From contig NW_001865042.1 in assembly GCF_000002865.3 (NCBI RefSeq), positions 409,933 to 473,932 of the forward strand: 64,000 bases of DNA. The letters are read 5' to 3'. The notes under the pieces are model-generated. The model searched no databases. It saw only the letters and a list, made by a program, of their open reading frames with translations, and was not told the origin of the DNA. Position numbers and translations under genes: made by a program. This document shows positions 14,501 through 62,400 of this stretch, piece by piece. Every line of letters starts with the position of its first letter. The stretch's first letter is position 1. This stretch comes from Monosiga brevicollis MX1. Taxonomy: Eukaryota.

Positions 14501-15807
14501 TGCATGAAGCATTCCTGGCCATGGTGGATGCGATGGGTGAGGCTGAGGCAGCAGGCGGCCCTTTTGGGGCCGTTGAACAACATGTCACAGTGCTACAAAC
14601 AGCTTCCAACTGGCATTTTCAGCAACAGTACCTCGAGTTTCGCCGCTTGCTGCATGATGCTCTCAGTCTGGCGCTGCGTCAGCTGCGCCGTGGCTTGACA
14701 GGCCGCCTCAGTTGCCTCGGCCATGTACATCGTGTCTACCATCTTGTGCGAGCCTTGCTAGAGGACCACTACGCCATGGACGATGCCAGCTGGACCTACC
14801 TGGACACTTGGCGTTGGGTGCTAGCGCAGTTGCTCGATGCCTTGCAACGCCGGACCGAGGAGCGACCTGTTGCACCAGAGCTTGATTTACTTCGACCACG
14901 GCAGCTGCCCTCAGACGAGAGTCTTGGTCTTTTGGAGCGAGCGCAACAACTCATGTTAGCAAAAGCGCAATCAGCCAACGTTCTAGGGCAAGCCGTCTTC
15001 GATTTGCTGGCCCGACCCTTCCCTGTCCCACGACATTTTTTTCGTGACAGCAATTTGTTGATGGCGCGCCTCGAGTGCTCGCCCCAGCTGCGAGATGGGC
15101 GCCCTTTCACCGTTGCCCTTGACTCGTACTGCAACGTCTTTGTCGATGGCTCTCTGATCTTACCTGATGCCACATGGTTTACTCATGGCAAGTTGGCCCA
15201 TGCCATACGTTCACACCTTTGTTAATACAAACAAACTGCGCAAGACCCCGTGAGGCTCTCATCCATGTGCGCTGCTGCTGCCTGTGCGCTTGTTCGTAGA
15301 GCGACGACTGAGCAAGTTGGCCATTGTACTGACGCTGCAACAGGACCTTGGTCATGGCAAATACAAAGACGTGACCCAGCACGCAGCCGTAGCGGAGGTG
15401 TGCGCTTTTTCTTTTTTTTTTTTCTCTGCAAATGGGATTCTGAGTGAGCAGGGTTCAAATATGCAGTTGGAAGTGATCTGAATACAACCTTACGACTCGT
15501 CTGTGCGCCTTGTGGTATCTTCTTTTGGTGCAGCTACAAAATTTGGTTTTCCAACAATCTTTTAGCATTTCACTGCCGGTTGGGCAGGTGTCGATTCTCT
15601 ATGCCTGCCGAGTGACATTGACCGCCATCGATGTTAACAACCGTCGATGGAAGGTGCATTCAACCACCGGAACCCAGCTCATTGTATGTCTGCTCGTGTT
15701 GCCACGATCGTGTTTCGACTGCTGCTTCATCGCTGAACAATGACGTTGGATTGACCTTGATTGACCCCACCTTGCAGGCAGAGGGCCTCAATAACATGAG
15801 CAATTGA
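11526..15807 (+). CDS. INTS7: Integrator complex subunit 7-like HEAT/ARM protein, multi-exon
   Basis: AINATFSLLANAF, DNELRYAIM and VLHSNDALARTLTLK resemble animal INTS7 INSAFLKLADVF / NNFLRLCVL / VIHSNDPVARAITLR. C-terminal PFPVPRHFFR resembles the INTS7 PRYFFQ motif and is followed by a beta-rich domain. Confidence 0.75.
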
Positions 15808-26803: not shown

Positions 26804-29800
26804 ATGTCGGGCATGCAGGTTGGTCTTGGATTGGCCCTGCCGTCTTTGCGCTCCGGCAGTTTGGACAGGCTCTTTGTGGTCTGGGGCCTGACTGCCTTGT
26901 TTTTTTTTTTTCTTTTTTTTTCTTCTTGGACGAGCGGTGCTGACGTGCTGGTCTCTTGGGTTACCGATTCTGGCGTTTGGCCTTTTAGCTCTTGGAGTTG
27001 AATGACGTTCGCGTCTTCAACTTGACAGCTGGTAAAGCTCTGCCGTCTTGGCTGAGCGAAAAGAAACGCCGACAGCTTTTGAAGCGTGATGTTGACCTGC
27101 AGGTACGTCTGACCTCGCGAGCCTCTCAAGGCTCTTGCGCGCTCTGCCTTGCTGGCTTCTGAAGTGCCCCATGAGGGTTTGAAACCTCTCACAAGCACCT
27201 TGCAACATCATCTTGCATGGTTTGTTGCAGCGTCGCATCGAACTCATTCAAGACTTTGAAATGCCCACTGCGGCCGATTGCATTCGAGTCTCGCCCGATG
27301 GCGAGTATATCATGGCCGCGGGTGAGTGCCTCAGACCTTTGGCTCTTGTAGACCGCTACGTTGCTCGATGTGGTCTCATCCGTCTTTTGCGTCTCTAGGT
27401 ACCTACAAGCCTCGCATTCGCTGCTACGACCTCGATCAGATGTCCCTCAAGTTTGAGCGCCACCTCAATTGCGAAGGTTCGTTGGCATACATGACCTCAG
27501 AAAGGGAATATCAAATGGTGTTGCCCGCGTGAGAAACGCCGTGCCTAGCCAACCTTGAGAGCACCAGCAATCGGGTGCTGCGGCCTCGGCACCTCACCGC
27601 GCTTGCCCACTTGGGAAATGTTGCACTTTTAGTGGTGGATATGGCCTACCTCTCCGACAATTACAGCAAGCAAGTCTTTCTCATGGCTGATCGCTACGTT
27701 GAAGTTCATGCCTCCTACGGCTACCATCACCGAGTCAGTTGAGCCAAGCCTATGTCGAGTATGCGTGCTCCAGTCTGGGTGGTCTCAAAGACACGGGCGT
27801 GGCAGAATGCCGTACTCGTGCTCACAAACACGTCTTGCCTGGCCATCACAGACGCGTACGCCCAAGAATGGCCGCAGTATCGCATATAATCACGAAACAT
27901 GTGATCTTTATGTTGGAGCCACTGGGCCCGAAATCTATCGCATCAACTTGGAGCAAGGACGCTTCCTCAAGTCTTGGGTGAGTTTTTTTTTTTTTTTTTT
28001 TGTTTTTTTTTTCTCGTCCCAAAGGTCGGCTCTTGCAGCCTCGACCTTCCATATGTCAACTTCTCATTTCCTCATCTCCACGCTGCACAGACCACACAAG
28101 CGCCTGCCGTCAACAAGGTGCTGATCAACGACTACTATGGCATGCTGGCCGCTGGAACCACCTTGGTATGCGTTCATGGAAGTGGCATCCACCTCTTGTT
28201 TGCTTTCACTGTGGGACCTTGTATCTCAAATAACATGTCATATTCGGCTCAATAGGGCATGGTGGAGTGCTTTGACCCTCGGGCTCGTGAGCGCATTGGT
28301 GTGCTTGATGTCACACGCGGTCTCTCCGCCCGTGCCCAGCGCCAGCTGTAAGGTTTTGCACGTGTCTTGATGAAAGCTCTCAGCCAATACTTCTGACCCA
28401 CACGCTCATCCGGCCGGTACACCTTTCGCACATGTAATAGCAAGGGTCAAATTCCGGCCATCTCGACCATGACTTTTATGCAAGACAATCTGACCCTCGG
28501 CGTGGGCACTACGGGCGGCCAAGTCTTGTTGTATGACATTCGTGCCGCAGAGCCGGTGCGTTTTCCAATCGGCACATGACACATGTCTTTGGGCTCAAGA
28601 CCATCGCGTTGAAATGATGGTCGCTTGACTCACTAGGGCGTTGCTTTGATTGTTTTCTAAAGGTTCTGACCAAGGATCACAGCTACGGCCTTCCTATCAA
28701 GCGAATTGTGCACCACGCCGCTTCCGATTCGGTGCGTCTTGTATCTCAAAGCAGGTGATGCCGAGGTCCAGTGCCAATGGCTCATGGCCATGTTTGCTGT
28801 TGTGCGGCTCTGGAACACACAGGTGCTGGCCGCAGATCAGAAGGTGATCAAGATCTGGAAGCGTGAGTCTGGTGAGGCCATTACTGCCATTGAGGCCGAT
28901 GCTGATATCAATGACATGGACATGTATCCTGATTCGGGTAAGGATGTCCCCCCTCCCTCCTTTTGCTTTTTTTCGGGTTCATGCTTGAGCGCGTGAGCAC
29001 ACCGAAGACCATAAGGTATTTTATCTTCATGTGCTTGTATGGTTGACTTGGCAGGCATGTTTTTTGTCGGAGGTGAGCAGTCCAAGATGATGATTTATTT
29101 TGTCCCCTCTCTGGGCCCTGCGCCCAAGTGGTGTCACTACCTGGACTCCATCACGGAGGAGCTGGACGACGGCGCGCAGCCAGCTGTGTACGATGATTAC
29201 AAGTTTGTCACGCGTGAAGAGCTTGACGCTCTTGGTCTGAGCAGCTTGGTGGGCACTGCCTTGCTCAAAGCACATATGCACGGCTACTTTATCGATGTGC
29301 GCCTTTACAACGAGGCCAAGGATGCCAGCAACCCCTTTGCCTACGAAGAATATCGGTGCGTCATTACTGAAATCGTTGCTCAGCATCGCCTGCCTCGTGC
29401 TCCTCGCTGAGCAAACCAAGGAGGTGAAAGTGCTTTGTCCAATCGCTCACCGCATTGTTCTTGCTGCTGGTTGTAGTCAACGCCTTATTCGCAAGAAGCT
29501 TGAAGAGGGTACTGAGTCTCGACTTCAATTGGCCAAGTATCGCAAGGAATTGCCAAAGATCAACAGGGCGTTGGCTAAGCGTCTGGTTGAGTTTAACGAG
29601 AACCAAGGTCAGGAGTCATCGGGCTGGTCACACCGCTTGTACAGTCCGCACTCTCATTGCATTGTGTCGGGTGCGAAACCTCACGTGGCTCTCAATCTGC
29701 TTTTCTCCTCGGTCGGGCACAGCCGAAAACACTGCAGCAGCTGCAGATGAAAAGGACACACCGGCAATGAGTAACCCACTGGGCGACGACCGTTTCAAGG

Positions 29801-30625
29801 CGCTCTTTTCGAACCCTGATTTTGAGATTGACATCAACAGTGATGAATATCGTCTGCGCCACCCGGCTGCTCGCGCTCAAGGCGCTTCAGATTTGCTGCA
29901 GGAGAAGTTTGCCTTGGTGGCTGATGAAGACGACGAGATTGAGGGTCGCGCCAGTGATGAAGATAGCGATGACGACTTGGAACTCGTGACCGGGCGCAAG
30001 CTGTATAACACGGTGCCCGAAGCGACTCAGGAGCCAAAGCCTCAGACTGCTCCGACTGGCCAGCGTGCTGAGAAGCGTCGCACTAGCAAGAAGGCAGATG
30101 ATGTTACCATGTACGAGCTCAAGGAGGGCGAGGAGGTTCGCGCTCTGACATCCCGGGCCAAGGTCACGGAACAAAACCTCAAGCGTCGAGGCAAGAGTTT
30201 TGCCTCACTTTTGGCCAAGGAACCGACGGCGCCTCGACAGGCGCAGGTGGCATCCACAGGCGCAGGTGGCAAGGTTATCCGCTTTGAGGTAGGTGTGGAT
30301 CAGAAGGCACATTGGCATTGCTCAGCGAAGCAGGCGACTTTTTCACAACGCATTCGTGCTTGCTTCTCTCAACCGCAGACCAAGAAGGCGTCAGAAGATA
30401 CCGAGGCGTATGTTTGCTGTCAATCCCCCCCCTTGCATCTGTTCCTGCTGACATTCAGTTCTCATTTCTTGCTTGTTGCCTGTGGTGGCTTGTGTTTTCC
30501 TGTAACGCAGTGCAAACGAACCATCCGAGGCTGAGCGCAAGCGAGCCAAGCGTGGCGTGCGTAGTCTGGGTCTCAGCAAAGGCCCCAAGCAGAAGTATTG
30601 GCGCGGCCGGCCTGTCAAGAACTAA
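26804..30625 (+). CDS. NOL10: Nucleolar protein 10 (Enp2), WD40 plus NUC153, multi-exon
   Basis: (MSG)MQ|LLELNDVRVFNLTAGKALPSWLSEKKRR, RRIELIQDFEMP, GTYKPRIRCYD, YRINLEQGRFL, PSLGPAPKWCHYLDSITEEL, MHGYFIDVRLY, DDRFKALFSNPDFEID. Confidence 0.95.
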
Positions 30626-36845: not shown

Positions 36846-38325
36846 GCGCAAAAAGGTGTGTATGATTGAGAGATGACGCACGTTGATGTGTGATGTTGAG
36901 AGGAAATGATGGATGAGGTAGAGCTTTAGAGAATTTATCGTCAAAAACAAAAAGTTTTACGAGGTGAGAAGAAGCAATTTCAGAGATTGTGGACTGGACC
37001 TTGTACGCAGTCAGAGAGGATGTCTTGCGCCGACATGTTCTCAGAGAGGCTTGTCAATTTCGTCTGACAACGTTGAGGACGGTTGTGTTGCAGCAAGACA
37101 TCGCTGTCGCAACTATGTCGCAATCAGACACGCTGGTGTTGACAACACCTATTCTAACCGATCTATCCTCAACACCTGTTCTGTTTACCTCTCCCTGCGC
37201 TAGAGAAAAAAAAAAATCACTCCTGCTCCCACTCACCCAACCCAGCGTGGTCCTTCCTCCCCATAGCCACCACTCCTCTGTCGGTCACTTGACCCCGACC
37301 TTGTTAGCTTGACGTTGCATTGGCTTCACGAGACCACGCCCCTCGCCCCCCGCCCCGCCCCCAAGCTCTTACATGGGGATCATCAGTTTGCAAGGAATGA
37401 GTCGTCAGGAAGCAAGGGGATCGAAGTTTTTGGCTTCCAAGGAAACGCAGCAAATCAGCACTCGTGAAGGGCGAAGGGCGTATGTACACTTGCATCAGTT
37501 GATCAGACACCGTCTGAGTTTTATACGGCTTCCAACACCTTCACGCCAGGGACTTGATGCACATGTCAAGCCGGGCAAGGGAAGGCAAGAAAGAGAATTA
37601 GCTGATAATTATTCATCCGAGATGTATCGCGAGGAGGAAAGGGGCCTCTGTTTGTCTGTGACTTTCATCAAACGGAAGGATCTCTTCGGCCACAAATAAA
37701 CAGTTTGCTCATTGCTCTGAGCTTCTTCGAGGCGACTGGCATTGTCACTAGAAACCACGGGCTTGCGGCCCTGCCACTGAGACTCGGAGAAAAAGAAAGA
37801 AAAAAAGTCAATAGAACTTGATAGATTTCAGATGAGACAAAGGAGAGTGGCATCGAGCACAAACAGGGAGCAGGTCGGGAGGAGAAGCCACACGCAGAAG
37901 AAGAGGAAAAATGAAAAAAAAAAATCAAGAAGAGTCAAAAGGGTCACTGGCGCGTGCACTCACAAGAGCGCCATGCATTGCGGCAAATCACAAAGTACAA
38001 ATTATTATGGGCAATTGGGTCCAGCCACAATCACAAAGGCTGCTACCTCGTCTCATCAAGACTGAGGCACAGAAACAAATGGAAACACAACCATGAACAA
38101 GGGGCTGATCAAACCATGATCCACTCAGACCCGCTCAACCAGTCAAACCAGCATGAGCTAGAGGTCCAGCCAAAAAGAAGAAAACAGACCAAAAAAAAAC
38201 CGAAGGCAAAGACTGAAACGAATGCAAACGGTCAGAAAGGGCGTGTCGGCAATCCGGACAAGAATAGGGAGAGCCTGCTTGCTCGGCAGACAGGCACGGT
38301 TCTTGGCAGAATTGAATCAGCCCAA

Positions 38326-39264
38326 TCAGGCCATGACAACAACGCGGGGCTTTCTTTCAGCGGGTGGAGGAATGGGTTGAGCCACCACGACCATGACATT
38401 CCGGCCACTGGTGCTGGAATGACTTCGACAAACGACGATGAATGTGAGCTTGGTCCAAACGGTGTTGCCATCCAGGGTGTTGAGCTCTTCGATTGATTGT
38501 AGCAGTTGAACGTTACGTCTTGCGAGGGCGTCGTGGACGTACGCCTGGACGCGACGCTGCTGTTCGGCCGTGTGGAGCTTGAGTTCAAAAGCGGACTGGT
38601 TAACAATGGTGGCTCGGGAGGGGGCCCGGAACAGGCTAACGGTGGCTTCATTGCAGTCTAGGATCTTGAGCGAGTCCACGTCGGTGACAAAGAGAGCACT
38701 ATCCCGTGGCAAAAAGGGACTATGCAAGACAGCCTGCATATCACCACCACCAAAGTCAAATGTGGAGAGGTTAAGCTCGGGGAGGTCAAAGTCGGCGATG
38801 CTGAGGCCGTTGGTGACGGGAAGCATGGGATGACCACCGGTATTCATGGGGCCCAGAACGGATTCCCAAGATGTGGTCGGGTTGGTGGCGGAGCCGATGC
38901 CCGAGGCTGCGGTCAGCGGCGTTTCTGTAGAATCATAATTTGAGCCGCGGCTGCTCATGGCATCGCTACTCACGGGTGATGCGGCATCAGCCATCATGGA
39001 AGAACCGGATTGGGGCGTGGACGAGGTGGCCGCCGATGCAGTGGCCTGAGCGGCGGCCTGAGCAGCTTTGGCACGGGCTTCGGAGAGGGCTTCTGCAGCG
39101 GCTTCCATGACGGCGGCTTGTTCGACGTCATCCCCAAGTTCAAGAAAGGTGCGCATGGTGGTAAGTGCAGCCTTCATGCGATGTCGGCGAATAGTTTCCG
39201 TGTGACGATGTTGTGCATAGCGCCGATTGAGCTTGTCACGTTTGTTAGCATTGTTTGCCCCCAT
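38326..39264 (-). CDS. bHLH transcription factor with a C-terminal PAS domain (coding region intronless)
   Basis: Basic/helix 1 QHRHTETIRRHRMKAALTTMRTFL and helix 2 EQAAVMEAAAEAL. PAS-like SALFVTDVDSLKILDCNEATVSLFRAPSRATIVNQSAFEL...LDGNTVWTKLTFIVV...VMVVVAQPI. Start context gccgtcATGG. Confidence 0.72.
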   Translation of the reverse strand: MGANNANKRDKLNRRYAQHRHTETIRRHRMKAALTTMRTFLELGDDVEQAAVMEAAAEALSEARAKAAQAAAQATASAATSSTPQSGSSMMADAASPVSSDAMSSRGSNYDSTETPLTAASGIGSATNPTTSWESVLGPMNTGGHPMLPVTNGLSIADFDLPELNLSTFDFGGGDMQAVLHSPFLPRDSALFVTDVDSLKILDCNEATVSLFRAPSRATIVNQSAFELKLHTAEQQRRVQAYVHDALARRNVQLLQSIEELNTLDGNTVWTKLTFIVVCRSHSSTSGRNVMVVVAQPIPPPAERKPRVVVMA

Positions 39265-39879
39265 GACGGCGGTGGAACTTGATTCGTGCTACAAGGTTCT
39301 AAGAGGAGGCGATTCGATGCGCAAGATTGGTGAGGAGAACAAAATGTTGGAATCTTTCATCGCCCGGCACCCGGCACAAGAAGCAGAGCAAAAGGAATAC
39401 ATGGAAACAACACGATGGGCCACCAGCAAACCCCAACCCGATCCAACACTCCAAAAAAAAAAAAAATGGCAGCGCGGTCGTGTCATTCTCAACAACCAAT
39501 AATGCCGGGTACGCGGGAAGGGAAGATGGAAAAGTCGAGTCGGCACGCATTCATGCATGTGCGTTGCACATAGCACGGAAAGCTTCGAGGTATTCACTTG
39601 CGACAGGAGCAAGGTGGTGGGCTGCCATTTGGCAGACCACCAATGTCATACGATCCATCCCAAACTGAACAAACACAGATCACCTCCGTCCCAGCATCGC
39701 AAGGCCCAGCACAACACAACACAACACCTGAACAACCCGGAGAAGCCAATACGCAAGCACTCACATGCCACAAAACCTGGGCGTGACGATGCCAAAGACA
39801 CAAAACGCCCCTGATGCACAAGGGCAGTCAGTTGCAAACACGTACCAAGCGAAAAAAAAAAAAAAAAGAACGCGATGTT

Positions 39880-39883
<4 letters not shown>

Positions 39884-39944
<61 letters not shown>

Positions 39945-40005
39945 ACACACACACACACACACAGACACACACACAGACACAGACACACACACACATACAC
40001 ACACA
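39884..40005. repeat. (CA)n microsatellite, interrupted
   Basis: Read directly. Confidence 0.95.
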
Positions 40006-51116: not shown

Positions 51117-54100
51117 TCAATCCAGCTCGCCACCAAACGCTGCGGAGGTAGTGGCAACGTCATGCTTCACCGACTTGCATCCCATTGTCGGGGAAGACAA
51201 GTCGGAGGACCCCTCTGAACGGCGCTTTCGCGGACTAGCCACCTGCTCAAAAGTGCCCGGCGCCTGCAAAACAACGCCTGGCAGATTCTTTGCTTCAAGT
51301 TCCTTCCCTTCGTTATCAGACTTTTGCGCAAGGCTGCATCGAAGTTCCGCCAACGTGCTCTCCAGACCCGCCGTGCAACGCCTCGGCACACACTGGTTTT
51401 CAAAAGCCTGCAGAAATTCACCCATGGCTGAACTTGCCACAGATGACAGCGCAACTTCACAGCACAAGGGCCGTAGCTGGTCAAGAGCCTGGGCCAGTTG
51501 GCGGTCATCCGCCTAAAAAAAGGGAAGCAACAATGTTAACATTTCGACTCTTCCAAAGATGTACCTGCTCAACCTCCGTGCAGTCATAGGAACTCACTTC
51601 ATTGAAGAAAGAGGTACATTGTGATAGCACCACCTGCCAATCAACGCTCTTGCCTGCAGTCCTTGAATCCCCCGAGTTACGCACTTTCATCCACTCCACC
51701 AGATAATGACAGCAAAGATCCGTCACTAAGCCTGGCAAGGGCTGCGGTGTTGCAATGGATAGAAACAATATGTGAGCGCAAGGAAAAAAAAAAAAAAAAA
51801 AAACCTCGTTGTTCGATAATAAAACAAGTGATACGTGTGAATGCAGACCTGCTGCCGGCGACAGCACAAACCTCTGTTTCCGCAGGCACAATCTGGTCGC
51901 TGAGTCCAGCAATAAATTTGAGTCGCATCAAAAATTGCGTGCCTATCTCGGGACGAAAGCAGACCCGCCCCCCCCCCCCCCAAAAAAAAAAAAAAACATA
52001 CATGAGAACTTATCTAAGCGCCTGCCACTTCCAAAAAAGGCTCATTGTTCGTACCAAGCAAAAGATTGTCCTGATCAGACGAATCGTCATCACGAGCCAG
52101 GCCCAAGGCGACAGCCACATCAAGAAGGTCCAATAGCGCCGAGAAACTTTTCTGTGGAAGATTCCACACGTCAATAAGCTGTGATGCTCGGGGGGCTCAT
52201 GCTTCGTCAGGTGAAAGAAAGCCGGTCTTGGAGCAAACTTACCGAATTTGCCAGGGTGGCCATGCCTTGCATCGAAAGCCAAGCCCGGGGTGATAACCTG
52301 TCTAACAGATCACAGGTGTCAAAAAGATGCTCCGCTGCTGACTCCCAGAGGTTCAGCGCCGCCTGCATAACTTGAACGCCAACATGTAGAAGCTCATGAG
52401 AATTGGATTGTCCTTGGAAGGTTGCCAAACAAGTTTGGCAAAACCGTCGAAGTGGCACGGCAGCCGTGCTTGCTGAGGCCAACATTGTTGCGATCGAGGT
52501 CGCGCGCTCAGCTTTGAGGTCGTCAGTGCGGGAAAGCACCTCCAAAATCGTGTGCAACCAGTTGAGACCCCAAAGGGTGCATCGCTTCGGTGAAAGAAGA
52601 AGCTCCCAGAGAGCTGGTAGGTCAACCTTCAGATTCGGTTGCTTGGGCAACGGAGCGATCATATCGAGGAGCGCTGTATGCAAACATGCTCGGGCGCGTG
52701 GTGCATCGGCCATGTGCACCAGCGCAGCAAGTAAGTTTTCTGTCTGCGGGCCTTGCACAACATTCAAGGCCGGTCGCCATAAAGCGACCAATGCGTCGTC
52801 CGAGAGCAACTCCAATTGTTGATGAGTCCGACGCAGCAAATCCAACACCAGGGATGCGCTGACACCACAATCAAACGGACTTCCAGCAACATGCTCCAAG
52901 AACCAAGCAGCAATGCGATGACTGCCCCAGGGCGTCATGTCAACGAACTGCGTATCGGAGACAAGAGTAACCACAAGGCTCAGGTAGGCTGGTAGCTGAG
53001 TCTTCAGAACGGCGCGTCGAGTCCGAGTCACGGTCAAGAAGGGGTTACAAAGACAAGCCCAGTGCTGGGCAGGCAGGCACGCTTTGGCCACGGCACCTGA
53101 GTCTTGCATCTGAGCCATGCGCAGAAGACGATACAGCTGAAAGACACCGATGACAGCTGCTTCATCGATTGAAGCACCCTCTAGCGACTCAAAATCCGAC
53201 AACGTTTTGAAGGCAAGGTCAGCAATGCCTTGGACTGTGGAACCAGCCTGCCAAAGTAAGGACATGGTGCCCTGCAAGAGGTGGGCCAGAAGCCGTATGG
53301 ACTTTAGCTTGGTTGTCGCGGATCGAGCCTTTGATGGCGATAGCGCCTCAACAAGCGCACGCACTATCCGTGTGTGCACGTCAGCCACAAGCTCGCGTTG
53401 TGCGGCGGAGAGGGTAGCAGCCACGGCTTTGATCTCAGCACACAACGAGTTGTTTGACCAATCCTCTCCAACAGCAGCCTCAAGGCGTTCAAGCACTTGA
53501 TCAAGGGCCGGAACACGGACGAATGCCTGCAAAAGCCGCGCAGCTGCAGCCTGGGTTTCGTAATCCGCATGCCAAATCAGTTGCCAGAAGCGCTGCACAA
53601 TATCCAAGGGTAGGAAAGGTGCATTTCCAGGCATTGTCGCAATCACAGAGGTTGACCCAGCGGGAGAAAATAAATCTTGTGAGCGATAACCAAACCAAAT
53701 TTTTCGTCCGCTGTGCCAAAAGAGACAAGCGAGAGCAGGAAGCGATGCAAACTTGACAAGTATGCAGCAACCTACCTTGTCTTGCATCAAAGGGTAAAGC
53801 TGTTGTTGAGGTGCTGGTTCACGGGCGAGCAGGGCAAGACAAAATAACGCCCGCTGTGGATCGAGCTTAGCGCAGCCAGCAAGGCCAAACGCGTAGCTGC
53901 GAAGCTCTTCCAAAGCTATGGGCAGCAGAGCTGCTGCATTGGGCCCGCAGAGCCAAGTTTGAACGAGCGTTGCAATGCCTTGCCAATGCACGGCGATGGA
54001 CAAAGCTGCGGCCAGATGCTGCCAGACTGAACGAACGCATAGGCCAGACGGGGTGAGTCAAGACATGCCATTGATGGGGCAGATCCTTGCCCACCCTGTT

Positions 54101-57100
54101 TTAACAAACCACAAGACATACCAGGTTGCATGATACTAGATTGCCGCTTGGCAATCAAGGCAAGTAGTTGCCGACAGCGCTCGAGGTGCTCGTCGTAACC
54201 GGAATTTGAAAGGCTGGTCCTGCCGAGTTCAAACAATTGCTCGCGTAAAAACACAACAGAGTCAACGCCTAATTTCTCTTGCTTATCATGGGCAGGGGCA
54301 GGACTGCTTGGGTCAGGAGTAGCTAGTTTTTGACCCACAACCAAAGCCAGGACAATGTCAGCCTGTTGTGTGACCGAAGATGGACCCAAGGCAAGTCCAT
54401 CTTGGTCAGTCTGGCACGCATCTTTCGTGCCACAAGAAGCCAAGCTCGAATGGACCAAATCCAAGACTGCAGGTAAAGCGATTTGGTGCGGCCGATTGAC
54501 GAGCTTCAAGCTATTATGAAGGCAGATTGCATCGGCAACCACGCCAGACGCCATCAGTGACTGAGCCAAACGAGGTGCCCGTGCGGCAGCAAAGGCCAGG
54601 GGCCAAAGACATGCATCCAAACGACCATTTACACAGACTTGATCGCGCCCAACTCGATTGACACAAAGCTGCGCGACTTCGAGGGCAAGGTCCGACCGAG
54701 CCGGTAACTGGAGAGCAAGTGTACGCTCTGGGCTATCACATGTATTCATGGGCGTAACAGGATGTACACGTTGAGACTTGGCGCAATCGTCATGTAGCAT
54801 GTCAGCTTGCATAGCCAGAGCGTGGCCAATGGCTATGAGCAAGAGCTGGCGAGTTTTTGCGCTCTGGGGATGGAGGAACAAACGCTCAAGGCGGGCTGGT
54901 ACAGCGCAGAGCATTTTCAAAAGCTGCTCGCCAAGGACTGGGCCCCTGCAACCAGTCTGAAGGTGCTCTACCACGGCCCCCGCCAAACGCTCGTGCTGAG
55001 CCTGGTGGCTAGCATTCGCTGCTTTTGGTGACAACGGCGCATCAAGCAGCAGCTGCGCCCCCAAGTAAAGACACTGTAAATGTGCGGCTGGTGACGTGTT
55101 CTCCATCAGCTCAAGCAAGGTGGCACAGTGATCTGGATGCTGCAAGAGGTTTCCGAGCAGTAGCAAGCGGTTGGCTTGCAGACAACGGCTGACTGCAGAT
55201 TGCAACCCTTCCGACATGATCGAAAATGTCCGAGGAACAATGCTTTTGGGCTCAACACGCTCGTAGACGAGCAGGTAGGCTGAATAGGCTTTCATCTCGT
55301 TTGCGTTAAGGTACGAGGAGACTGACGCATCAGCATCAACTCGCTTGACCCCACCATAGCTTTGCTCCAAGAGAACGTCTGTGCTCACTGGCGTAACCTG
55401 ACGATCGTCAAGGCGCAGCCACTGGGAAGAATCGCGCTGCTGAGCAAACGCATAATAATGCCCAGACTGAGCTGAGCCAGAGTGTACCACCACTCCGGTG
55501 AGCCTATACAACTCGGCGGCTGAAATTGCTGCATCAGACATGTATGGTCGTAAGTCGAGGTCGAGAGGAAACTCACAGCGCTGGTGAATCTTGATTCGCT
55601 GCTGGCTTTCCATATCATATGCCATGCGCTTCAGGGAAATAATCACGCAGGCTGGTAATTGCCTGAGTCGAACCAATTTTTCTGCAGACACTCGCTCTTG
55701 ACAGTCTGCACAGTGATACTTGTTTTGGCCGTCTAGCAGCTCACCGCGCACAAATTCGGCCAAGGATTCTTGTAACGTCGGCTTGACGGCCACCTGCAAT
55801 GTAAAAAAAGATTGCTCGGTGGCGCTGACATGCCCACAATCCTAATGCAGGAGAGAACAGCCCAAGATACACCATCACGTCAGGCGATGAGCTGAGGATC
55901 TGCAATCTGGGCAGAAAGAATTCAAAACACAGCTCGAGCGCCGGAGATCCAAAGCCACTCACTCGCCCACGAATCTCTTGCCGCAATACACCACCAAACA
56001 GGTCTTGGACCAGATTTTTATCTGAACTCCTGTGTGCAACTGATTCCAGCCTGTCTAAGAACTAATGGTTCACACGACATTGTCAGTTCCACCTGAGATT
56101 TGTGCCGAAACAACGCCACGGCCTTGAAAGCGAGCTGTGACTGTTCCTTTGACCACCCTACTACCTCTCACTTGCCTTGACTCAGCAGGCAGACGAAGCC
56201 ACACACACGCGCGCACACACACACGCAGACACACACACACACACAAACCAATGCAATGCAATGCAATATGTTCCACGCCAGTTCAAAGACTCACCTGATT
56301 CATAAATTCATCCACATCAACTTGCTCGCGAGGATTGATGGGTTGACCGGCCATATCGGTATATGCTGCGCATAGTTCGTGCATTGGCACAAAACGCCCA
56401 ATGGAATACTTCAGCTCAACAAAGAGATCTTGCAGTTGAGGCAGCGGTGCAGAAAGTTGTGAATCCTGACTTTCAGGTGCGGCCTGGAAGGGAGAAAGCA
56501 AACGAACAAAGAGAAGCAGGAAGGCATCATTGTTTGGAAAAGAAAACCCGAAAGGAAAAAAAAAAAAAAAAAAAAAATTGAAAGAAAACACACGATTCAC
56601 AAAAGATGTGGAATCAAAGGGGTGAGGAAAGAGACTTACGCGGATGGCCAAAAGGCGAGCGCAAAAGGCTGGCATGAAAAACAGCTGTTGCAAAAAAGCA
56701 TTCATGTAGCATGTCGCACCCTAATCAAGCACGAGAATGATAAGAGAGCTGCGGCATGTTTGAAAAGCTTTCAAAAGTCAGCGCAACACTGAGTCGGACC
56801 GACAAAGAGTGCAGTTTGAAATGTTTGATCCGCTGAGAGAGCAGATTTCGATTCTCACCAAATTTTGAAGGCCGCAATAGCCAGCGGCAGCAATCAACTC
56901 AATGTCTGCCAAAGCGTTGGCAGCCTCGGGGTCGTGAAAATAGGGAGAGTGAAATTGGACCAAAGCAGCAACTGTTGTCTTTTGACCTGGTTCATCATGT
57001 GCTAAAAGAAGCCGCAAAAGCTTGCCGGCAGCCGCTCGAGAGTCGCGCATAACACACTGTTGATGGATCGGCGCATGCAATCAGGTTGAACACGTGTGAA

Positions 57101-59417
57101 ATTGAGAATGAAATCACTCGAGGATGTGCAGATAACGAACCAACAAAACGTGACAAACCTTTGGACACGTGGGCTCAGAGCGAGACACCTCGTCAGGCAG
57201 AGCGTAAAGAAACTGTGTGGTCAAGCACAATGCCAAATCATGGAATTCTATAAAGAGGAAGTATCAAGAGGAAGTGAGAAAAAAGGGAAGTCAGGCACTT
57301 TGAACGCAATCAGCGTCAGCAGATACTCTAAAACCGACCGGAGGTCATTGCGCACAAATCAAGTTTAGGTACGAGGGCGGCCAAAACCTCGAGGTGAAAC
57401 ACCAAACCAAAGTCGGTGGTGCTCACGCCGGGACATTCCTTGCTCTTCCATGTCAAAAGCGCTGCTTTCAGCATGCAAAACCAGCTCTGCAACAATGTCT
57501 GCATCGCTAATGGTTTCTCTGTGCTGGCCGTTGCAAATGTTGACTTGATGGCTGGTGTAGTTGTTGTGGATGTGTGTGGTGCTGCATCTGGCAAATGCTG
57601 TTTGAGCAAAGTGCGACAAACACCTTGGAGACGCAGCCAGCCAGGTGCATTGTCCAGCGGTGCCTCCCTCACTGCGCCAATAATCGCGCCGACAAGCAGA
57701 GCAATAGGCGCGCCTGTAGGTGCACGCGCTACGTCTGCACACTCTGGTCCGGGGGCAGTTGGAGATGAACCAAGTTGTTCGAGGATCTTGGCTGCGCTCT
57801 CGCCCAAGGGCAGATGCCCACGCCAGGCAACAAATGCAATCAGACGCGAACAATTTTCGTTGGTCACAAATTCTGCCCGCGCACGTGGAAAACAGCGTAG
57901 GAGCGCCTGAAGAGTTGGTAGCAAATGCACACACGACTCAGCCACAATCGGATGACCCTCCAAAACTCTGTTCAAAGCCTTGTTGACGCACTCAAGTACG
58001 GTAGCGCTGGACAGGCCTGGCTCCTGTGGTTCGCTGATCAGCATTGTACCCAAGCACTGGCAAAGAAGGGCGATGCACCGATCTACTTGATGAGGCTCTC
58101 CGGTGCTTGGCAGCGGATTTAAAAAGTGAGAAAGTGCTGCGACAGTTGCGGCGATGACACTTTCGTGACGCAAGCAAGGGCGCACATCAACACCAGTCGT
58201 TAGTTCTTGGTGCATCAGTCGGGCCAAGGTGGTGACTTGAAAAAGGCGACAATCGCCGAGGGCAGTCAGAAGCCTGTCCTTCGCCAACCATTCACCCAGC
58301 AACTCGGGACTGATGCGGACGTGCTCGAGCACGGTCGCGGCCAAGCTGGCCAATTTTTGCGGGTCTGCCAGGCTGTCTGTGCTGCCTCTTGTCAACTCAA
58401 ATAGGCATCGCAAGTGGCTTGGCTTATCCGCCAGCATGCATCTGGGCTGGATGTGCTGCAACGCCTGCACGGAGGCGTAACTCGAACGCGGCAACGCAGG
58501 GTCCGAGGGAAACGTGATAGAGACAGCGTCACGTAATCGGCGATTGGACCGCCGTGGCTTGACGATGAGGTCACAAGGGCCTAGTCCTGAAACGTGAAAC
58601 AAAAGTGGGTCTTCCAGAGACTGTAGCATGTCAGGAGAGGAGAGCGCAGTGCCTGTGGCTGTAGTTGGCACATAAGCATGAAGCCGGACCGGCAGCTGAC
58701 GGGAGTCAAAGGCCGAAGCTGGTGGGAGAAGTTGGGTCAAATGTGAGCTCTGATCAATAACATCCATGACGAGAGCCATGGAGGAGACGAAAATTGTTTC
58801 AACATTGACGTTGTTCTCCCACAGATTAAGTTGCAGCCAGCGTGGGGCGTGCGAGTGCAGCACAGAAGAGGAAAGCTTGACCATCATCTCGGCAAGCAAG
58901 CTCATCCACACAATAGCAGATGGCGTTCGGGAAGCCACGTTGGGAGCTGTCTGGGCTTCGGTGATGGCCCGGTCAATAAAATCCCTGCGAGCCTTGATTG
59001 CTCGTTCAGACGGCCAGGTATTACAAACAACGGTTGAAAGGAGGTCAGTCAGGACACTCGATCCATATTGAACAGTGTCCATCAGCTCGCCGTAGCCCCG
59101 GGGCGTGCATAATGTGAAAAGATCCATATGAGGACCTTTGAGCACAATTGATTGGTTCTCAATGCCCAGGTTGATAAAGAGCCGATGGAACAAAGGGGCC
59201 GCTTCTGGCCCAGCTAGCCCCATGTCACGTGCCAAGATTTGCAAAAGCTGCGCAGAAAAGTCACATCCGTAGAGGGTGTCACAACTCCAGGAACGAGCCG
59301 CCTGCTGATACAATGCGTTAAGCAAAAGACCCAGCCGACTCTGCGTCGGGAGAAGCATGTCCCAGACTCTAAGGAAGCAAAAGTCAGCAACACAGTGAGC
59401 AGGTCCACAAACACACA

Positions 59418-59468
<51 letters not shown>

Positions 59469-62400
59469 ACCAGGCATCCTCTTGACACACGCACGGGTGC
59501 CAAGGCTTTTCAAGATGTGCATCAAGTAGCATGACAACACCCACCCTTCCAGTTGCGGCCACGGCATTGGATATTGAAGATTATATGCGCGTAGCCAGAG
59601 CTGTATGATGCGCAGCAAGTCGGTTGACTCGGCCAGTGGCATCAGACCTATTAGCCCAGTTTGTACTTGCGCCTCGTGCAACAATTTTGCACCGGCATCT
59701 GGTACACGCAACGCGGCGTCGATGACACAGCCAAGCAAATTGAGGGCATGTGTCAACGACAGCTGGGGTTTGCAAAGGCTGACCAAGGCCAGCTGAGCGG
59801 CTTGCAGGATGGCTGGGCGTGAGAGGCTGCTCAAAAAGTCTTGAAGCAGGGCCAGGACGTCAGCAGCGCAAGGCAAGCTTTGAGCCTGGGTAGCGACATT
59901 GAGACAGTTCTCGAGGACGTGTGTGTTAGCGGCATCTGAGCGCATCAACGCTTGAGAGCAGATGATGAGCACCTTGCAATAAGCAAGGCATAAAGTCGGG
60001 GTCCTTGGCAAATCAGTCCCCCGTTTGCACATGTCCAAATGCAACTGAGATAAATGCTCCGCCGGGGCCATGTATAGGGCTGGCAAGCAAGCCAGGGCCC
60101 ATTGAGCCAGAGAGTCGTGTTTGCACAAGGCCACCTCCAACAGACGTTGCCACACATTGAGCGCAAGTCGGCCCTTGAGCGCTTGCAGCGATAAAAGTGG
60201 GCGCAAACGCTTTAAGAGTTCTTCGTGCAATTGATCGTGGACTAAATCCTCGAGGATATGCTCCCGTGCCAGCCACTCCGAGAGGCTATCGAGTTCATGA
60301 TCATTGAGCATAGGCTCTGCACAGTCACCTTGTTCCGGTTGTTGCTATAAGCGTCGGGTTAAGTCGCAGATCCGAAGCATGAGGACGATGCTGAAGAACT
60401 TAATGGCTAACATGGTGAGAGGATACCTGCGACGACCGTGCCCCCACTTACCGCGAGAGTTGGCGCAATCTCTCCCTACAGTGTCACGCAGGCAACCACG
60501 ATGAGCGCACATGAACAAAGAGATGGTTATGAAGAGAGAATCATGATTGCTCATCAGACACCGCCATCTTTCTGAGCACAACTACAAGCATGTGCTTTGG
60601 GTCTGTTGCGTACCGACAGGATGTTGAGAGCCAAGACCTGAGCTTGAAGGCTGGAGAGGCGCAAGCACTTGTTTAGAACAGCGTGCTTCTTGTCGCGCAC
60701 GAGGCTAGGCTCAAAAGCAGCAAGAGAGCTGATGGCACTTAAAAGCTTCAGAATCTGCTTCATTTCTGACACTGGGGCCACTTTGAGGCGATGACCTGGC
60801 AGCCTCAGCAGCCATCTGCCAATGTGAACAACGGACAATCGTGCGTTTCTATCAAAAACTTGTGGATCTTTGCTTCAAACTCGACGATATGATTGACTAT
60901 CCAGAGCAACTTACTCAAAAGACGCTTCTATCAGACGCCAAACGCTTGGCTGAAGCCTTGGATCAGAGCCAAAAAGCGCGACCTGAATGCCGACAATACG
61001 GGAAACCGGTTAAGGAAAACGGCCAGGCTGTACATTTGCAGCCCTTGATGTAAGCAGGTTTGTTTTCGCGCGAAGGAGTGCACCCACTTGTTGTGTGAAA
61101 GCCAACCACATGCGCAGCTGCTCAAACGAGCAGGCTGCATCGCAATTTTCTTCCAGTAAGATGCCGAATCGTTCGATAATGTTAGCTTGACACACGGCTT
61201 GAAGAAGATGCGCCAGAGACAGCTGATGGCAGCCCAGATGATCCTGATACAGCGGTGCGTGCAGGTTGCAGAGATCATGCATGGCTTGGTGCAGAGCAGG
61301 TGCCGTCAGACCAGCCGTTTTGGCATAAAAGTCGAGAATGCCTATTTTATAAATTGCGTGAGGCGCTGTGCAAAATCAAACAAGAAACGAGGCTGGGAAT
61401 GAGATACCTTGAAGGCAGTGTTGAGCGGCTTCAGCATGGGCTTTGTCTTGAACGTCACTATCCAACAACGGCATGGCGCATGAGAGACACAAGAAGCCCT
61501 CGTGTCAGCTGACATGCTCGAGGCGGCTCACTTTAAGTTCGCAAGGGTTTCTGTCAGGATGGGTATCTGTAGGCGGACTACAAGGCCTAGATGTTCGTGC
61601 GCATTGAGCTGGTCGTCGAGCTGCTTGGGGGTCATAAAAGTTGCGCCCAGCTCCAACAGCTCACGCGCCACCTGATGATGTAGATAGGTCAGATGTAGAG
61701 AAAGAGTGGTTGAGGAGAGCAATGGGCAAACCAGTCGGAGCGTGCCGTTGACGTCGGCAATTGAAGCAGCACAATATATAGCATCTATTTTGTCTTTTCG
61801 CCTGTGGCCTCCCAGTATCGCGACCTCTTGTGACGAAAGCCAAACGACAGGACACAAACCTCATCGAGGGCCGAGCAGATGTCCTGTACGCAACAGTTGC
61901 TGTCCGGGGCGCTGACTGTGTGTTGGTGGGTAGGTGGGCGCGCGCATGGCGGTGTGCCGATGAGCCGGTGTGTCGATATGTCAATGCGTCGCAGGACCCG
62001 CAAGCACGCAAAAGCAAAGCATTTGGGGACGAGCGATCAAGTCACGGAGACAAGCAACAGTCGACGTACCTGATAGCTTCGAAAGCTTGCTATGCCACCA
62101 GCCATAGTCATGATAGGTGCAGTGAGCAACGTCGATGTCGTCGGATACGTCCATGGTAGCTTGAGACAGAGGTCGGCTGGAGAAAACGACCTCGCTCGCG
62201 CGAAATGCCTACACCAGCAGAGCTTCACGTGGCCATTGCTGTAGGACACCACCATGGGAAAGAAGCCGAGGAAACGAGTAGATCGGTGTGCCGTGAGATT
62301 CGTGCCGCAGGCCTACCAAGAAGAAGAGGAGGANGAGGTGGTGGTGGTGGAGGAGGAGGAGGAGCAACAGGAGAAGGAGGCCCCTTTGAACCGGTTCAGT

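What the first reader, a model, noticed from the sequence alone, without database searches (positions are those of the whole stretch)
38326..39264. Non-canonical bHLH + single-PAS one-component sensor transcription factor
Seen: a 312-aa intronless ORF with an N-terminal bHLH (about 39070-39230), an A/S/T-rich and acidic linker, and a C-terminal PAS-like domain (about 38365-38706: ALFVTD..KILDCNEAT..LF..SR..IVNQS..L ... DGNTVW). The basic region H-R-H-T-E-T-I-R-R carries the H5/E9/R13 signature and parallels ARNT HSEIERRRRNKM, including the Met. Established: animal bHLH-PAS factors (ARNT, BMAL, CLOCK, HIF, AHR, SIM) carry tandem PAS-A and PAS-B directly after the bHLH. Inference: this protein has one PAS that reads more like microbial sensor PAS domains, placed about 120 aa from the bHLH, so it may be an independent bHLH-PAS fusion or a pre-animal form that couples ligand, gas or redox sensing directly to transcription. 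It lacks the LOV GxNCRFLQ cysteine motif, so a flavin photoreceptor is unlikely.
Basis: partly seen in the sequence, partly recalled or inferred. Interest (0 to 1): 0.88.

Follow-up and report, generated by a model that had tools for sequence, protein, structure and literature searches.

The report
Choanoflagellate bHLH plus single-PAS factor
A real, expressed gene in a close unicellular relative of animals encodes a small DNA-binding bHLH protein with a single PAS domain; this kind of protein has been listed for choanoflagellates before but never studied.

Summary
Window 38326-39264 (-) is a 312-aa intronless ORF. It is transcribed and polyadenylated and under strong purifying selection: 12 synonymous versus 2 non-synonymous differences from a marine-metatranscriptome variant.

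The query alone misses Pfam cut-offs: no HLH hit, PAS 17.3 bits against 22.6. It does align end to end with 17 relatives of about 300-470 aa. Of these, 12 come from Choanoeca flexa, C. perplexa and Monosiga brevicollis. Eight pass Pfam HLH and four pass both HLH and a PAS family.

AlphaFold2 gives a confident helix-loop-helix (pLDDT 93) and a canonical PAS fold (Foldseek E 1.4e-6, VIA Z about 14). H19/E23/R27 (H5/E9/R13) are conserved across the family. The two domains are joined by a disordered linker of about 100 aa.

Best reading: a dimeric E-box-type transcription factor whose single PAS is a sensor or partner-choice module. This function is inferred, not shown.

Novelty is limited. Graham & Presnell 2017 and Annunziata 2019 already list single-PAS bHLH+PAS genes in M. 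brevicollis, although Mills 2018 states choanoflagellates have none. Whether it is a pre-animal form or an independent fusion remains unresolved.

The parts
37808..39672 (-). mRNA extent supported by assembled RNA-type contigs. It is unspliced. The 3' end (poly(A) site) is at 37808; the 5' end is at least 39672.
   Evidence: an X3 contig of 1,865 nt at depth 190.8 covers 37808-39672 with 0 differences, no gaps and no joints. Marine metatranscriptome contigs X8 (37808-39397) and X9 (37808-39294) stop at the same 37808. X8 carries a loose T20 run before 37808, which is poly(A) on the minus strand. A genome-like X1 contig of 10,119 nt runs on past both ends.
39265..39672 (-). 5' leader of at least 408 nt. 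It holds 10 upstream ATGs, including an in-frame 89-codon uORF (39558 down to 39289) that ends 25 nt before the main ATG.
   Evidence: (script on the window sequence), within the X3 contig.
38326..39264 (-). Coding sequence, 312 codons plus the stop codon.
   Evidence: Purifying selection: 12 synonymous against 2 non-synonymous differences from the X8/X9 variant.
39172..39228 (-). Basic region (residues 13-31: NRRYAQHRHTETIRRHRMK) with H19/E23/R27 at bHLH positions 5/9/13.
   Evidence: E23, R26, R27, R29 invariant; R15 in 17 of 17 filled rows; H19 in 17 of 18; profile alignment to the Cbf1, HES-1, CLOCK and MAX bHLH domains.
39028..39228 (-). bHLH domain (residues about 13-79): basic region plus helix 1 to residue 41, loop 42-48, helix 2 from 49 to 79.
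   Evidence: AF2 pLDDT is 89-96 in the full model and 93.3 for residues 1-85 modelled alone. 39 of the 41 Foldseek rows shown are bHLH proteins, but none has a significant E-value. 8 of 18 scanned relatives pass the Pfam HLH cut-off.
38737..39027 (-). Disordered S/G/T/A-rich linker (residues 80-176). It ends in an acidic-hydrophobic stretch, DFDLPELNLSTFDF, which may be an activation motif or a PAS N-cap (inference).
   Evidence: pLDDT below 50 for 85-96, 101-115 and 117-165; composition. Both amino-acid differences from the marine variant (T83M, T130A) lie here.
38365..38736 (-). Single PAS domain (residues 177-300). The N-cap motif L180/S182/L185, the LDCN motif (D203, C204, N205) and W270 are conserved across the family.
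   Evidence: AF2 strands 190-195, 200-204, 254-262, 268-279 and 290-298, and helices 206-212 and 234-248. Foldseek: at least 456 PDB matches at E<=0.001, best 1.4e-6. VIA Z 13.4-14.0. Conservation.
38329..38379 (-). Family-specific C-terminal tail (residues 296-312). Family consensus is QPxxxPxDG+x+V; the query has QPIPPPAERKPRVVVMA. The model adds an extra strand at 307-311.
   Evidence: Q296 15/17, P297 12/17, P301 15/17, G304 14/18 with R in the query, V308 11/18.
37808..38325 (-). 3' UTR, 518 nt.

Best explanation
This is a genuine, expressed choanoflagellate gene for a short transcription factor. It has an N-terminal basic helix-loop-helix domain, a disordered linker of about 100 aa, and one C-terminal PAS domain. 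It belongs to a fast-evolving family that is expanded in the Monosiga/Choanoeca lineage.

Most likely mechanism (inferred): the HLH forms a homo- or paralog-heterodimer. The conserved His5/Glu9/Arg13 basic region reads a CACGTG-like or NACGTG-like E-box half-site. The single PAS domain acts as a second interaction surface and/or a small-molecule or signal input that modulates dimer choice or activity, as PAS-B does in animal bHLH-PAS factors and as proposed for diatom RITMO1-type proteins.

Shown here: gene structure, transcription, selective constraint, domain folds and family membership. Inferred: DNA binding, dimerisation and sensing.

The confidence of 0.7 is for the whole statement. I put about 0.9 on its being a real bHLH plus single-PAS protein, about 0.75 on its being a sequence-specific dimeric transcription factor, and about 0.4 on the PAS being a signal input.
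For: Real gene: the ORF is confirmed. An unspliced transcript-length contig and metatranscriptome contigs end at a common site with a poly(A) trace. There are 12 synonymous against 2 non-synonymous differences from a variant about 98% identical at the nucleotide level, giving pS 0.052 and pN 0.0028.

Family: an exhaustive HMMER search gave 23 hits at E<=1e-3. Seventeen of them are 297-469-aa proteins, and several align over both ends of the query, for example P0006 over 14-308, P0009 over 9-310 and P0013 over 10-305. Their sources are 8 C. flexa, 3 C. perplexa, 1 M. brevicollis (XP_001750280.1, which UniProt calls 'BHLH domain-containing protein'), 3 Logan contigs and 2 metagenome contigs.

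Domains: of the 18 proteins scanned, 8 pass the Pfam HLH cut-off and 5 pass a PAS-family cut-off. Four do both (P0005, P0013, P0019, P0023). The family profile hits the bHLH of Cbf1 (E 1.1e-3), HES-1, CLOCK and MAX, and the PAS-B of HIF-3a, EPAS1 and ARNT (E about 0.01).

Structure: the HLH has pLDDT 93.3 and its top structural neighbours are bHLH chains at rmsd 1.5-1.9 A. The PAS fold gives Foldseek E 1.4e-6 and VIA Z up to 14.0.

DNA-reading residues: E23, R26, R27 and R29 are invariant and H19 is present in 17 of 18 rows. Group B bHLH proteins bind CACGTG and group C proteins bind ACGTG or GCGTG cores (Simionato 2007, passage read). That H5/E9/R13 make the base contacts is recalled textbook knowledge.
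Against: The query by itself gives no Pfam HLH hit even at E<=10, and its PAS scores (17.3 and 15.7 bits) are below the curated cut-offs. Its sequence search of solved structures found nothing meaningful. Seven of the 18 scanned relatives, including the query's two nearest (P0008, P0010), have no Pfam hit at E<=0.01.

The Foldseek E-values for the isolated HLH are not significant: 0 of 62 matches reach E<=0.001.

No residue that would ligate heme or flavin is conserved in the PAS. For example, H244 in the F-alpha helix is not conserved, and there is no LOV cysteine motif. The 'sensor' part therefore has no direct support, and the PAS may be only a protein-interaction module.

No DNA-binding, localisation or dimer data exist for any member. 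In the RITMO1 2024 preprint, a term search found no mention of dimers, E-boxes or two-hybrid assays.
Confidence: 0.7

Rival explanations
1. Evolutionary reading A: a pre-animal form. The family is homologous to animal group C bHLH-PAS factors and to other protist single-PAS bHLH-PAS proteins, and it keeps an ancestral one-bHLH, one-PAS state with a PAS-B-like domain. Readings A and B concern origin, not function; both are compatible with the best explanation.
For: The family profile's top PAS matches in the PDB are animal PAS-B domains: HIF-3a E 0.0096, EPAS1 0.01, ARNT 0.019. These rank ahead of bacterial YtvA at 0.08. CLOCK and BMAL1 bHLH domains are also among the hits. For the whole protein, the nearest ESM-Atlas clusters are a diatom HLH+PAS cluster (0.89) and an ARNT cluster (0.88); scores under 0.9 are leads only. 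Annunziata 2019 argue from the domain organisation and branching position of the M. brevicollis protein for a common origin from an ancestor with single bHLH and PAS domains (passage read).
Against: All these E-values and scores are weak. Graham & Presnell 2017 found that the unicellular bHLH+PAS genes cluster together and not with any metazoan family (passage read). No animal or diatom protein reached E<=1e-3 in the single-sequence HMMER search. Structure does not discriminate.
Confidence: 0.45
2. Evolutionary reading B: an independent fusion. A group-B-like bHLH was joined to a generic, bacterial-type PAS within choanoflagellates or a near ancestor, converging on the bHLH-PAS architecture.
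For: The best bHLH match of the profile is Cbf1, which I recall to be a group B protein. Outside the family, the query's PAS hits are long multi-PAS proteins; P0017, a Cyclobacteriaceae PAS S-box protein, is the only one looked up. The ESM-Atlas neighbours of the PAS alone are all bacterial, at score 0.94 and TM 0.72-0.74. The 100-aa spacer and the lack of PAS-A differ from the animal layout. Xing et al. 2023 report that several eukaryotic PAS domains have their closest relatives in bacteria (passage read).
Against: Bacterial PAS domains vastly outnumber eukaryotic ones in these libraries, so 'nearest is bacterial' is expected by sampling alone. The PDB profile ranking favours animal PAS-B. 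The same architecture recurs in Capsaspora, Guillardia and diatoms.
Confidence: 0.3
3. Functional rival: the PAS senses nothing and is purely a dimerisation or partner-specificity module. The protein would then be a constitutive bHLH factor regulated at the level of expression or translation, rather than a one-component sensor.
For: No cofactor-ligating residue is conserved. The conserved PAS positions (D203, N205, W270, L180) are generic structural ones, by my reading. The 5' leader holds 10 uATGs, which points to translational control. Choanoeca has many paralogs, consistent with combinatorial dimers.
Against: Animal PAS-B domains bind ligands without any conserved cofactor motif: AHR and HIF-2a ligand binding is noted in Xing 2023 (passage read). 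Absence of a motif therefore does not exclude sensing.
Confidence: 0.35
4. Artefact or pseudogene: a chance ORF, or a decayed gene with no function.
For: The query alone misses the Pfam thresholds.
Against: A poly(A)-ended transcript exists. pN/pS is about 0.05, and both amino-acid replacements lie in the linker. There is full-length homology to 17 proteins, and the AF2 domains are confident.
Confidence: 0.01

Closest known systems
Monosiga brevicollis bHLH+PAS genes Mbr_29742 (XP_001750280.1 / A9VBZ9, which is P0007) and Mbr_26507 (Graham & Presnell 2017, S1 table; Annunziata 2019, SI 'Mbre2')
   Same: Same family and architecture: an N-terminal bHLH, a long low-complexity spacer and one C-terminal PAS, with a total length of 300-400 aa. 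P0007 is a direct HMMER hit of the query at E 3.3e-8.
   Different: P0007 is only 28% identical overall by HMMER and 23% in the BLASTP match over the PAS, and it lies on another contig. I could not obtain the sequence of Mbr_26507, so whether the window's protein is that gene, a third paralog, or an ortholog in another choanoflagellate is untested.
Choanoeca perplexa P001460 and C. flexa P015470 (P0008, P0010; EukProt transcriptomes)
   Same: These are the nearest relatives in the family tree (support 89/90). Identity is 53-58% over the basic region and helix 1, and about 39-41% over the first 100 aa or so.
   Different: Their C-terminal halves are much more diverged and they give no Pfam hit at E<=0.01. 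All branches are long.
Diatom RITMO1 (bHLH1a) and bHLH1b, and other protist single-PAS bHLH-PAS proteins (Annunziata et al. 2019)
   Same: One bHLH plus one predicted PAS, with a short C-terminal extension (passage read). The nearest ESM-Atlas cluster for the whole protein is a diatom HLH+PAS cluster, at score 0.89, which is a lead only.
   Different: Diatom proteins have an N-terminal extension, whereas here the bHLH starts at about residue 13. No diatom protein reached E<=1e-3 from the query. RITMO1 has genetic evidence for a circadian role; nothing is known for the choanoflagellate proteins.
Animal group C bHLH-PAS factors (ARNT/BMAL1, CLOCK, HIF-a, AHR, SIM, NPAS)
   Same: A bHLH followed by PAS. 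The basic region has the H-x3-E-x3-R pattern. The PAS resembles PAS-B by profile (E about 0.01) and by structure: ARNT PAS-B gives Z 13.7 at rmsd 2.2 A over 107 residues, with CYCLE and BMAL1 PAS-B at Z 13.5-13.6.
   Different: The protein is 312 aa, and no HIF-type or other C-terminal activation domain was detected. Published trees place the unicellular genes outside all metazoan families.
Capsaspora owczarzaki and Guillardia theta bHLH+PAS genes
   Same: Unicellular bHLH+PAS genes that cluster with the M. brevicollis genes in Graham & Presnell's tree.
   Different: They were not recovered by the query's HMMER search, and no sequences were available here for comparison.
Aureochromes (bZIP-LOV) as a functional analogue
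   Same: A small one-polypeptide factor that joins a dimeric DNA-binding domain to a single PAS-superfamily domain. The aureochrome 1a LOV domain is a structural neighbour, at Z 13.5.
   Different: Aureochromes use bZIP rather than bHLH. The flavin-binding LOV cysteine motif is absent here.

Membership tests
bHLH superfamily (Pfam PF00010) | The protein itself scores at or above the Pfam HLH gathering cut-off (20.7 bits). | tested here: not met
   no HLH hit for the query, even at E<=10.
bHLH superfamily (Pfam PF00010) | Full-length homology to proteins that do pass the HLH cut-off. | tested here: met
   One search gives HMMER hits such as P0003 (E 2e-14), P0004, P0005 and P0013 (aligned over 10-305); 8 of 18 scanned relatives score 22.1-31.6 bits against the cut-off of 20.7; the family profile matches the Cbf1 bHLH at E 1.1e-3 and HES-1 at 1.7e-3.
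bHLH superfamily (Pfam PF00010) | A basic region with the E-box-reading residues His/Lys5, Glu9 and Arg13. | tested here: met
   H19, E23 and R27 in the query are conserved in 17/18, 18/18 and 18/18 family rows. They align with the H, E and R-R of Cbf1.
bHLH superfamily (Pfam PF00010) | Two amphipathic helices joined by a loop, matching solved bHLH structures. | tested here: inconclusive
   AF2 gives helices 3-40 and 49-81 at pLDDT 93.3. 39 of the 41 Foldseek rows shown are bHLH chains (TMt 0.67-0.79, rmsd 1.5-1.9 A for the best), but no E-value is at or below 0.001.
PAS fold (Pfam clan; PF00989, PF13426) | The protein scores at or above a PAS-family gathering cut-off. | tested here: not met
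   PAS 17.3 bits against 22.6; PAS_9 15.7 bits against 27.
PAS fold (Pfam clan; PF00989, PF13426) | A five-stranded antiparallel sheet flanked by helices, matching solved PAS domains. | tested here: met
   AF2 pLDDT is about 80-95 over residues 181-280 and 291-310, with a dip to 63 in the 281-290 loop. Foldseek gives at least 456 PDB matches at E<=0.001, the best at 1.4e-6 with TMt 0.72-0.74. VIA: 746 of 1000 chains at Z>=8, with the top at Z 14.0. ESM-Atlas structure TM 0.72-0.74.
Animal group C bHLH-PAS (ARNT, BMAL, CLOCK, HIF, AHR, SIM) | Tandem PAS-A and PAS-B after the bHLH. | tested here: not met
   There is only one PAS, at residues 177-300. Residues 80-176 are disordered with no fold. 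No second PAS hit appears.
Animal group C bHLH-PAS (ARNT, BMAL, CLOCK, HIF, AHR, SIM) | Phylogenetic placement of the bHLH and PAS within or sister to metazoan group C. | not tested
Published trees disagree in emphasis.
Protist single-PAS bHLH-PAS class (RITMO1-like, sensu Annunziata 2019) | One bHLH, one PAS and a short C-terminal extension. | tested here: met
   the class description comes from the passage read.
Protist single-PAS bHLH-PAS class (RITMO1-like, sensu Annunziata 2019) | Detectable sequence relationship to RITMO1-clade proteins. | tested here: inconclusive
   None reached E<=1e-3. The only link is an ESM-Atlas lead: a diatom HLH 98% / PAS 31% cluster at score 0.89.
LOV photoreceptor PAS | A flavin-adduct cysteine in the GXNCRFLQ motif. 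| tested here: not met
   The motif is absent from the sequence. The conserved C204 lies in the LDCN motif at the B-beta/C-alpha junction, not in E-alpha.
Heme PAS sensors (FixL, EcDOS type) | A conserved axial histidine in the F-alpha helix. | tested here: not met
   The only His in the 234-248 helix, H244, appears in 1 of 18 family rows. That the FixL-type ligand sits in F-alpha is recalled.

The most novel reading that the evidence does not exclude
These short proteins are the choanoflagellate sister lineage of all animal bHLH-PAS factors and keep the ancestral one-PAS, PAS-B-like state. This contradicts the published statement that choanoflagellates lack the family. They would work as paralog heterodimers that couple an environmental cue, such as oxygen or redox state, or light-dark timing as for RITMO1, directly to E-box transcription. 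That would be the unicellular precursor of the HIF, AHR and clock logic.
Probability: 0.2. Interest if true: 0.75.

Novelty: new member of a known kind. Interest (0 to 1): 0.4.

Why it matters
bHLH-PAS factors run animal oxygen sensing (HIF), xenobiotic sensing (AHR) and the circadian clock (CLOCK/BMAL1), and their origin is debated. One widely cited analysis states that choanoflagellates have no members (Mills 2018, passage read). Two other papers list M. brevicollis genes without comment.

This window shows that at least one such gene is real, unspliced, transcribed in the sea and strongly constrained. It sits in a family with at least 8 paralogs in C. flexa, at least 3 in C. perplexa and at least 1 in M. 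brevicollis. Most of these fall below standard Pfam cut-offs, which may explain the conflicting reports.

The family offers a concrete, testable handle on the pre-animal state of this regulator class. It is not a new kind of system.

Tried and rejected
1. The query alone against Pfam and against PDB sequences gave only sub-threshold PAS hits and no HLH hit. The case rests on the family.

2. Word-index homolog searches were unproductive. One search returned only the 99% copy. One search, with the profile, returned 2 proteins because low-complexity words crowded the 8000 candidates. One search queried a neighbouring USP9/24/34-like exon to learn the organism, but the named hits were scattered eukaryotes at about 38% identity with no choanoflagellate among them. 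All three searches are now used.

3. A homodimer prediction of the full-length protein scored 0.15 against a mark of 0.32, so it gave no verdict and counts neither way.

4. The E-box CACGTG occurs 23 times in the window against 24.6 expected. The nearest copy upstream of the gene is at 40883, so nothing suggests autoregulation.

5. No paralog lies elsewhere in the window (tblastn with 18 family members).

6. Rfam gave no hits in the window.

8. Structure could not separate animal PAS-B from bacterial PAS or LOV domains; all are tied within 1 Z unit.

9. I could not link the ORF to jgi|Monbr1|26507. No paper holds 'MONBRDRAFT_26507' and the supplements give only identifiers. The organism is therefore given only as a choanoflagellate, probably Monosiga or a near relative.

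10. LOV and heme-PAS readings were rejected because the key residues are absent or unconserved.

11. Searches for 'Choanoeca'+'bHLH' (4 papers; none of those examined concerns bHLH-PAS) and 'choanoflagellate'+'RITMO1' (0 papers) found no description of this family's expansion.
Full report
**1. Observation**

The window holds a 312-codon ATG-to-stop ORF at 38326-39264 on the minus strand. An in-frame stop lies directly upstream. The window is eukaryotic. No prokaryote genome is held for it. It also carries USP-type UCH, PIG-M and NUC153 exons, and GC is about 0.49-0.57 throughout.

**2. Is it a real gene?**

Public runs hold the locus, and four of them were laid on 37600-39900.

- Run X3 has one 1,865-nt contig at depth 190.8 covering 37808-39672 with no difference, gap or joint.
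- Two marine metatranscriptome runs (X8, X9; cDNA libraries) have contigs covering 37808-39397 and 37808-39294, with 29 and 25 differing letters (about 98% identity).
- X8 carries a loose run of 20 T before 37808, which is a poly(A) tail for a minus-strand mRNA.
- A genome-like contig of run X1 (10,119 nt, depth 11) continues past both ends.

The gene is therefore unspliced, with a 518-nt 3' UTR and a leader of at least 408 nt.

The tool warns that contigs in RNA libraries do not by themselves prove transcription. The poly(A) trace and the common stop in runs from two studies are the positive signs.

The 14 differences inside the CDS split into 12 synonymous and 2 non-synonymous (pS 0.052, pN 0.0028). 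Both replacements, T83M and T130A, lie in the linker. This rules out a chance ORF or a pseudogene.

**3. Domains in the query alone**

Pfam gives PAS at 17.3 bits (cut-off 22.6) and PAS_9 at 15.7 bits (cut-off 27), with no HLH hit even at E<=10. A sequence search of solved structures gave nothing meaningful.

**4. The family**

The exhaustive HMMER search of 1.84 billion representatives gave 23 hits at E<=1e-3. They break down as follows:

- the query's own cluster;
- 17 proteins of 297-469 aa;
- one 143-aa PAS fragment;
- four long proteins that match only the PAS.

Of the four long proteins I looked up one, a Cyclobacteriaceae PAS S-box protein.

Several of the 17 align with the query from about residue 10 to about residue 305. 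Their sources are 8 Choanoeca flexa, 3 C. perplexa, 1 Monosiga brevicollis (XP_001750280.1 / A9VBZ9, which UniProt names 'BHLH domain-containing protein'), 3 Logan contigs and 2 metagenome contigs.

Pfam results for the 18 proteins scanned:

| Result | Count |
|---|---|
| Pass the HLH cut-off | 8 of 18 |
| Pass a PAS-family cut-off | 5 of 18 |
| Pass both | 4 of 18 |
| No hit at E<=0.01 | 7 of 18 |

In the alignment, E23, R26, R27, R29, N205 and W270 are invariant. R15, H19, L43, L180 and D203 are nearly so.

The family profile matches the bHLH of Cbf1 (E 1.1e-3), HES-1 (1.7e-3), CLOCK (0.017) and MAX (0.031). It also matches the PAS-B of HIF-3a (0.0096), EPAS1 (0.01) and ARNT (0.019).

The window's organism is therefore almost certainly a choanoflagellate. 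I could not name the species (one search was uninformative).

**5. Structure**

With the family as its alignment, AlphaFold2 gives the following:

- helices 6-41 and 49-79, at pLDDT 89-96;
- a disordered stretch, with pLDDT below 50 for most of 85-176;
- an alpha/beta domain with strands 190-195, 200-204, 254-262, 268-279 and 290-298, and helices 206-212 and 234-248.

The PAS half has at least 456 PDB matches at E<=0.001, the best at 1.4e-6 with TMt 0.72-0.74. VIA Z is 13.4-14.0.

Residues 1-85 modelled alone reach pLDDT 93.3. 39 of the 41 Foldseek rows shown are bHLH chains (CLOCK, BMAL1, MAX, ARNT, MITF, Cbf1, HES-1, TCF4, MyoD/E47). None has a significant E-value, as expected for a 55-residue hairpin.

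**6. What kind of PAS?**

The evidence is mixed.

- The PDB profile ranking favours animal PAS-B.
- Single-sequence HMMER hits and ESM-Atlas neighbours of the PAS alone are bacterial.
- VIA ties LOV and bacterial PAS with ARNT, CYCLE and BMAL1 PAS-B.
- For the whole protein, the nearest ESM clusters are a diatom HLH+PAS cluster (0.89) and an ARNT cluster (0.88), both below the 0.9 lead threshold.

No LOV cysteine motif and no conserved F-alpha histidine are present.

A family-specific C-terminal tail, with consensus QPxxxPxDG+x+V, follows the last strand.

**7. Mechanism (inferred)**

H19/E23/R27 sit at bHLH positions 5/9/13. This pattern is associated with CACGTG-type or NACGTG-type sites. 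The group B and C core sites come from Simionato 2007 (passage read); the residue contacts are recalled.

I propose a dimeric E-box-type factor whose PAS modulates partner choice or responds to a signal. Paralog heterodimers are plausible given the many paralogs per species. In the family tree the query groups with C. perplexa 1460 and C. flexa 15470 at support 89/90, and all branches are long.

**8. Literature**

- Annunziata et al. 2019: I read passages of the main text and searched the SI. They say that diatom bHLH-PAS proteins have a single predicted PAS. They include an M. brevicollis protein, jgi|Monbr1|26507, in their tree and cite its domain organisation and branching position in arguing for an ancestor with single bHLH and PAS domains.
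- Graham & Presnell 2017: I read passages and the S1 table. They list Mbr_26507 and Mbr_29742, four Capsaspora genes and four Guillardia genes. They report that the unicellular genes cluster apart from the metazoan families.
- Mills et al. 2018: in the passage read, they state that no members were found in choanoflagellates.
- Fortunato et al. 2016: in the passage read, they credit only Capsaspora.

The weak Pfam scores found here offer a simple reason for this disagreement.

I found no paper on the Choanoeca expansion or on any function. bioRxiv supplements were not available to me. The RITMO1 preprint's supplements may hold more identifiers.

**9. Verdict**

The evolutionary reading remains open, and the novelty claim is not supported. 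This is a new, or possibly already listed, member of a known but unstudied class.

Noticed in passing
window 39265-39672 (-): The 5' leader of the bHLH-PAS mRNA holds 10 upstream ATGs. One is an in-frame 89-codon uORF (39558 down to 39289) that stops 25 nt before the main ATG. This suggests translational control, or that the true transcription start lies further downstream.
   Followed up: partly
window 39294-39295 (-), run X9: The 1,645-nt marine metatranscriptome contig, which is the source of P0002, continues for 157 nt upstream of 39294 with letters unlike the window. The X8 contig stays colinear to 39397. This could be an alternative 5' exon, strain divergence or a chimeric contig.
   Followed up: no
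window 39884-40038 and 41693-41773: Long (CA)n microsatellites of 75 and 40 copies lie just upstream of the gene. The first gives the HTHTHT-type pseudo-ORFs seen.
   Followed up: no
window 52207-55841 (-): Large exons of a USP9/24/34-like ubiquitin hydrolase (Pfam UCH, E 3.7e-27). The best named relatives are scattered across eukaryotes at about 38% identity.
   Followed up: partly
window 47229-48134 (-) and 29428-30534 (+): Exons with GPI-mannosyltransferase PIG-M / PIG-U-type matches and a NUC153 domain. These are ordinary eukaryotic housekeeping genes.
   Followed up: no
window 13477-15225 (+), 42445-43872 (-), 57328-59580 (-): Three long open frames of 475-750 aa have no Pfam match at E<=0.001. 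They were not examined further.
   Followed up: no
family alignment A1, query residues 296-312 (window 38329-38379): A conserved C-terminal tail, consensus QPxxxPxDG(R/K)x(R/H)V, follows the PAS in most family members. I do not recognise it from canonical PAS domains, and the query has diverged at the DG positions.
   Followed up: partly
literature: Published statements conflict. Mills 2018 says choanoflagellates have no bHLH-PAS. Graham & Presnell 2017 and Annunziata 2019 list M. brevicollis genes.
   Followed up: yes
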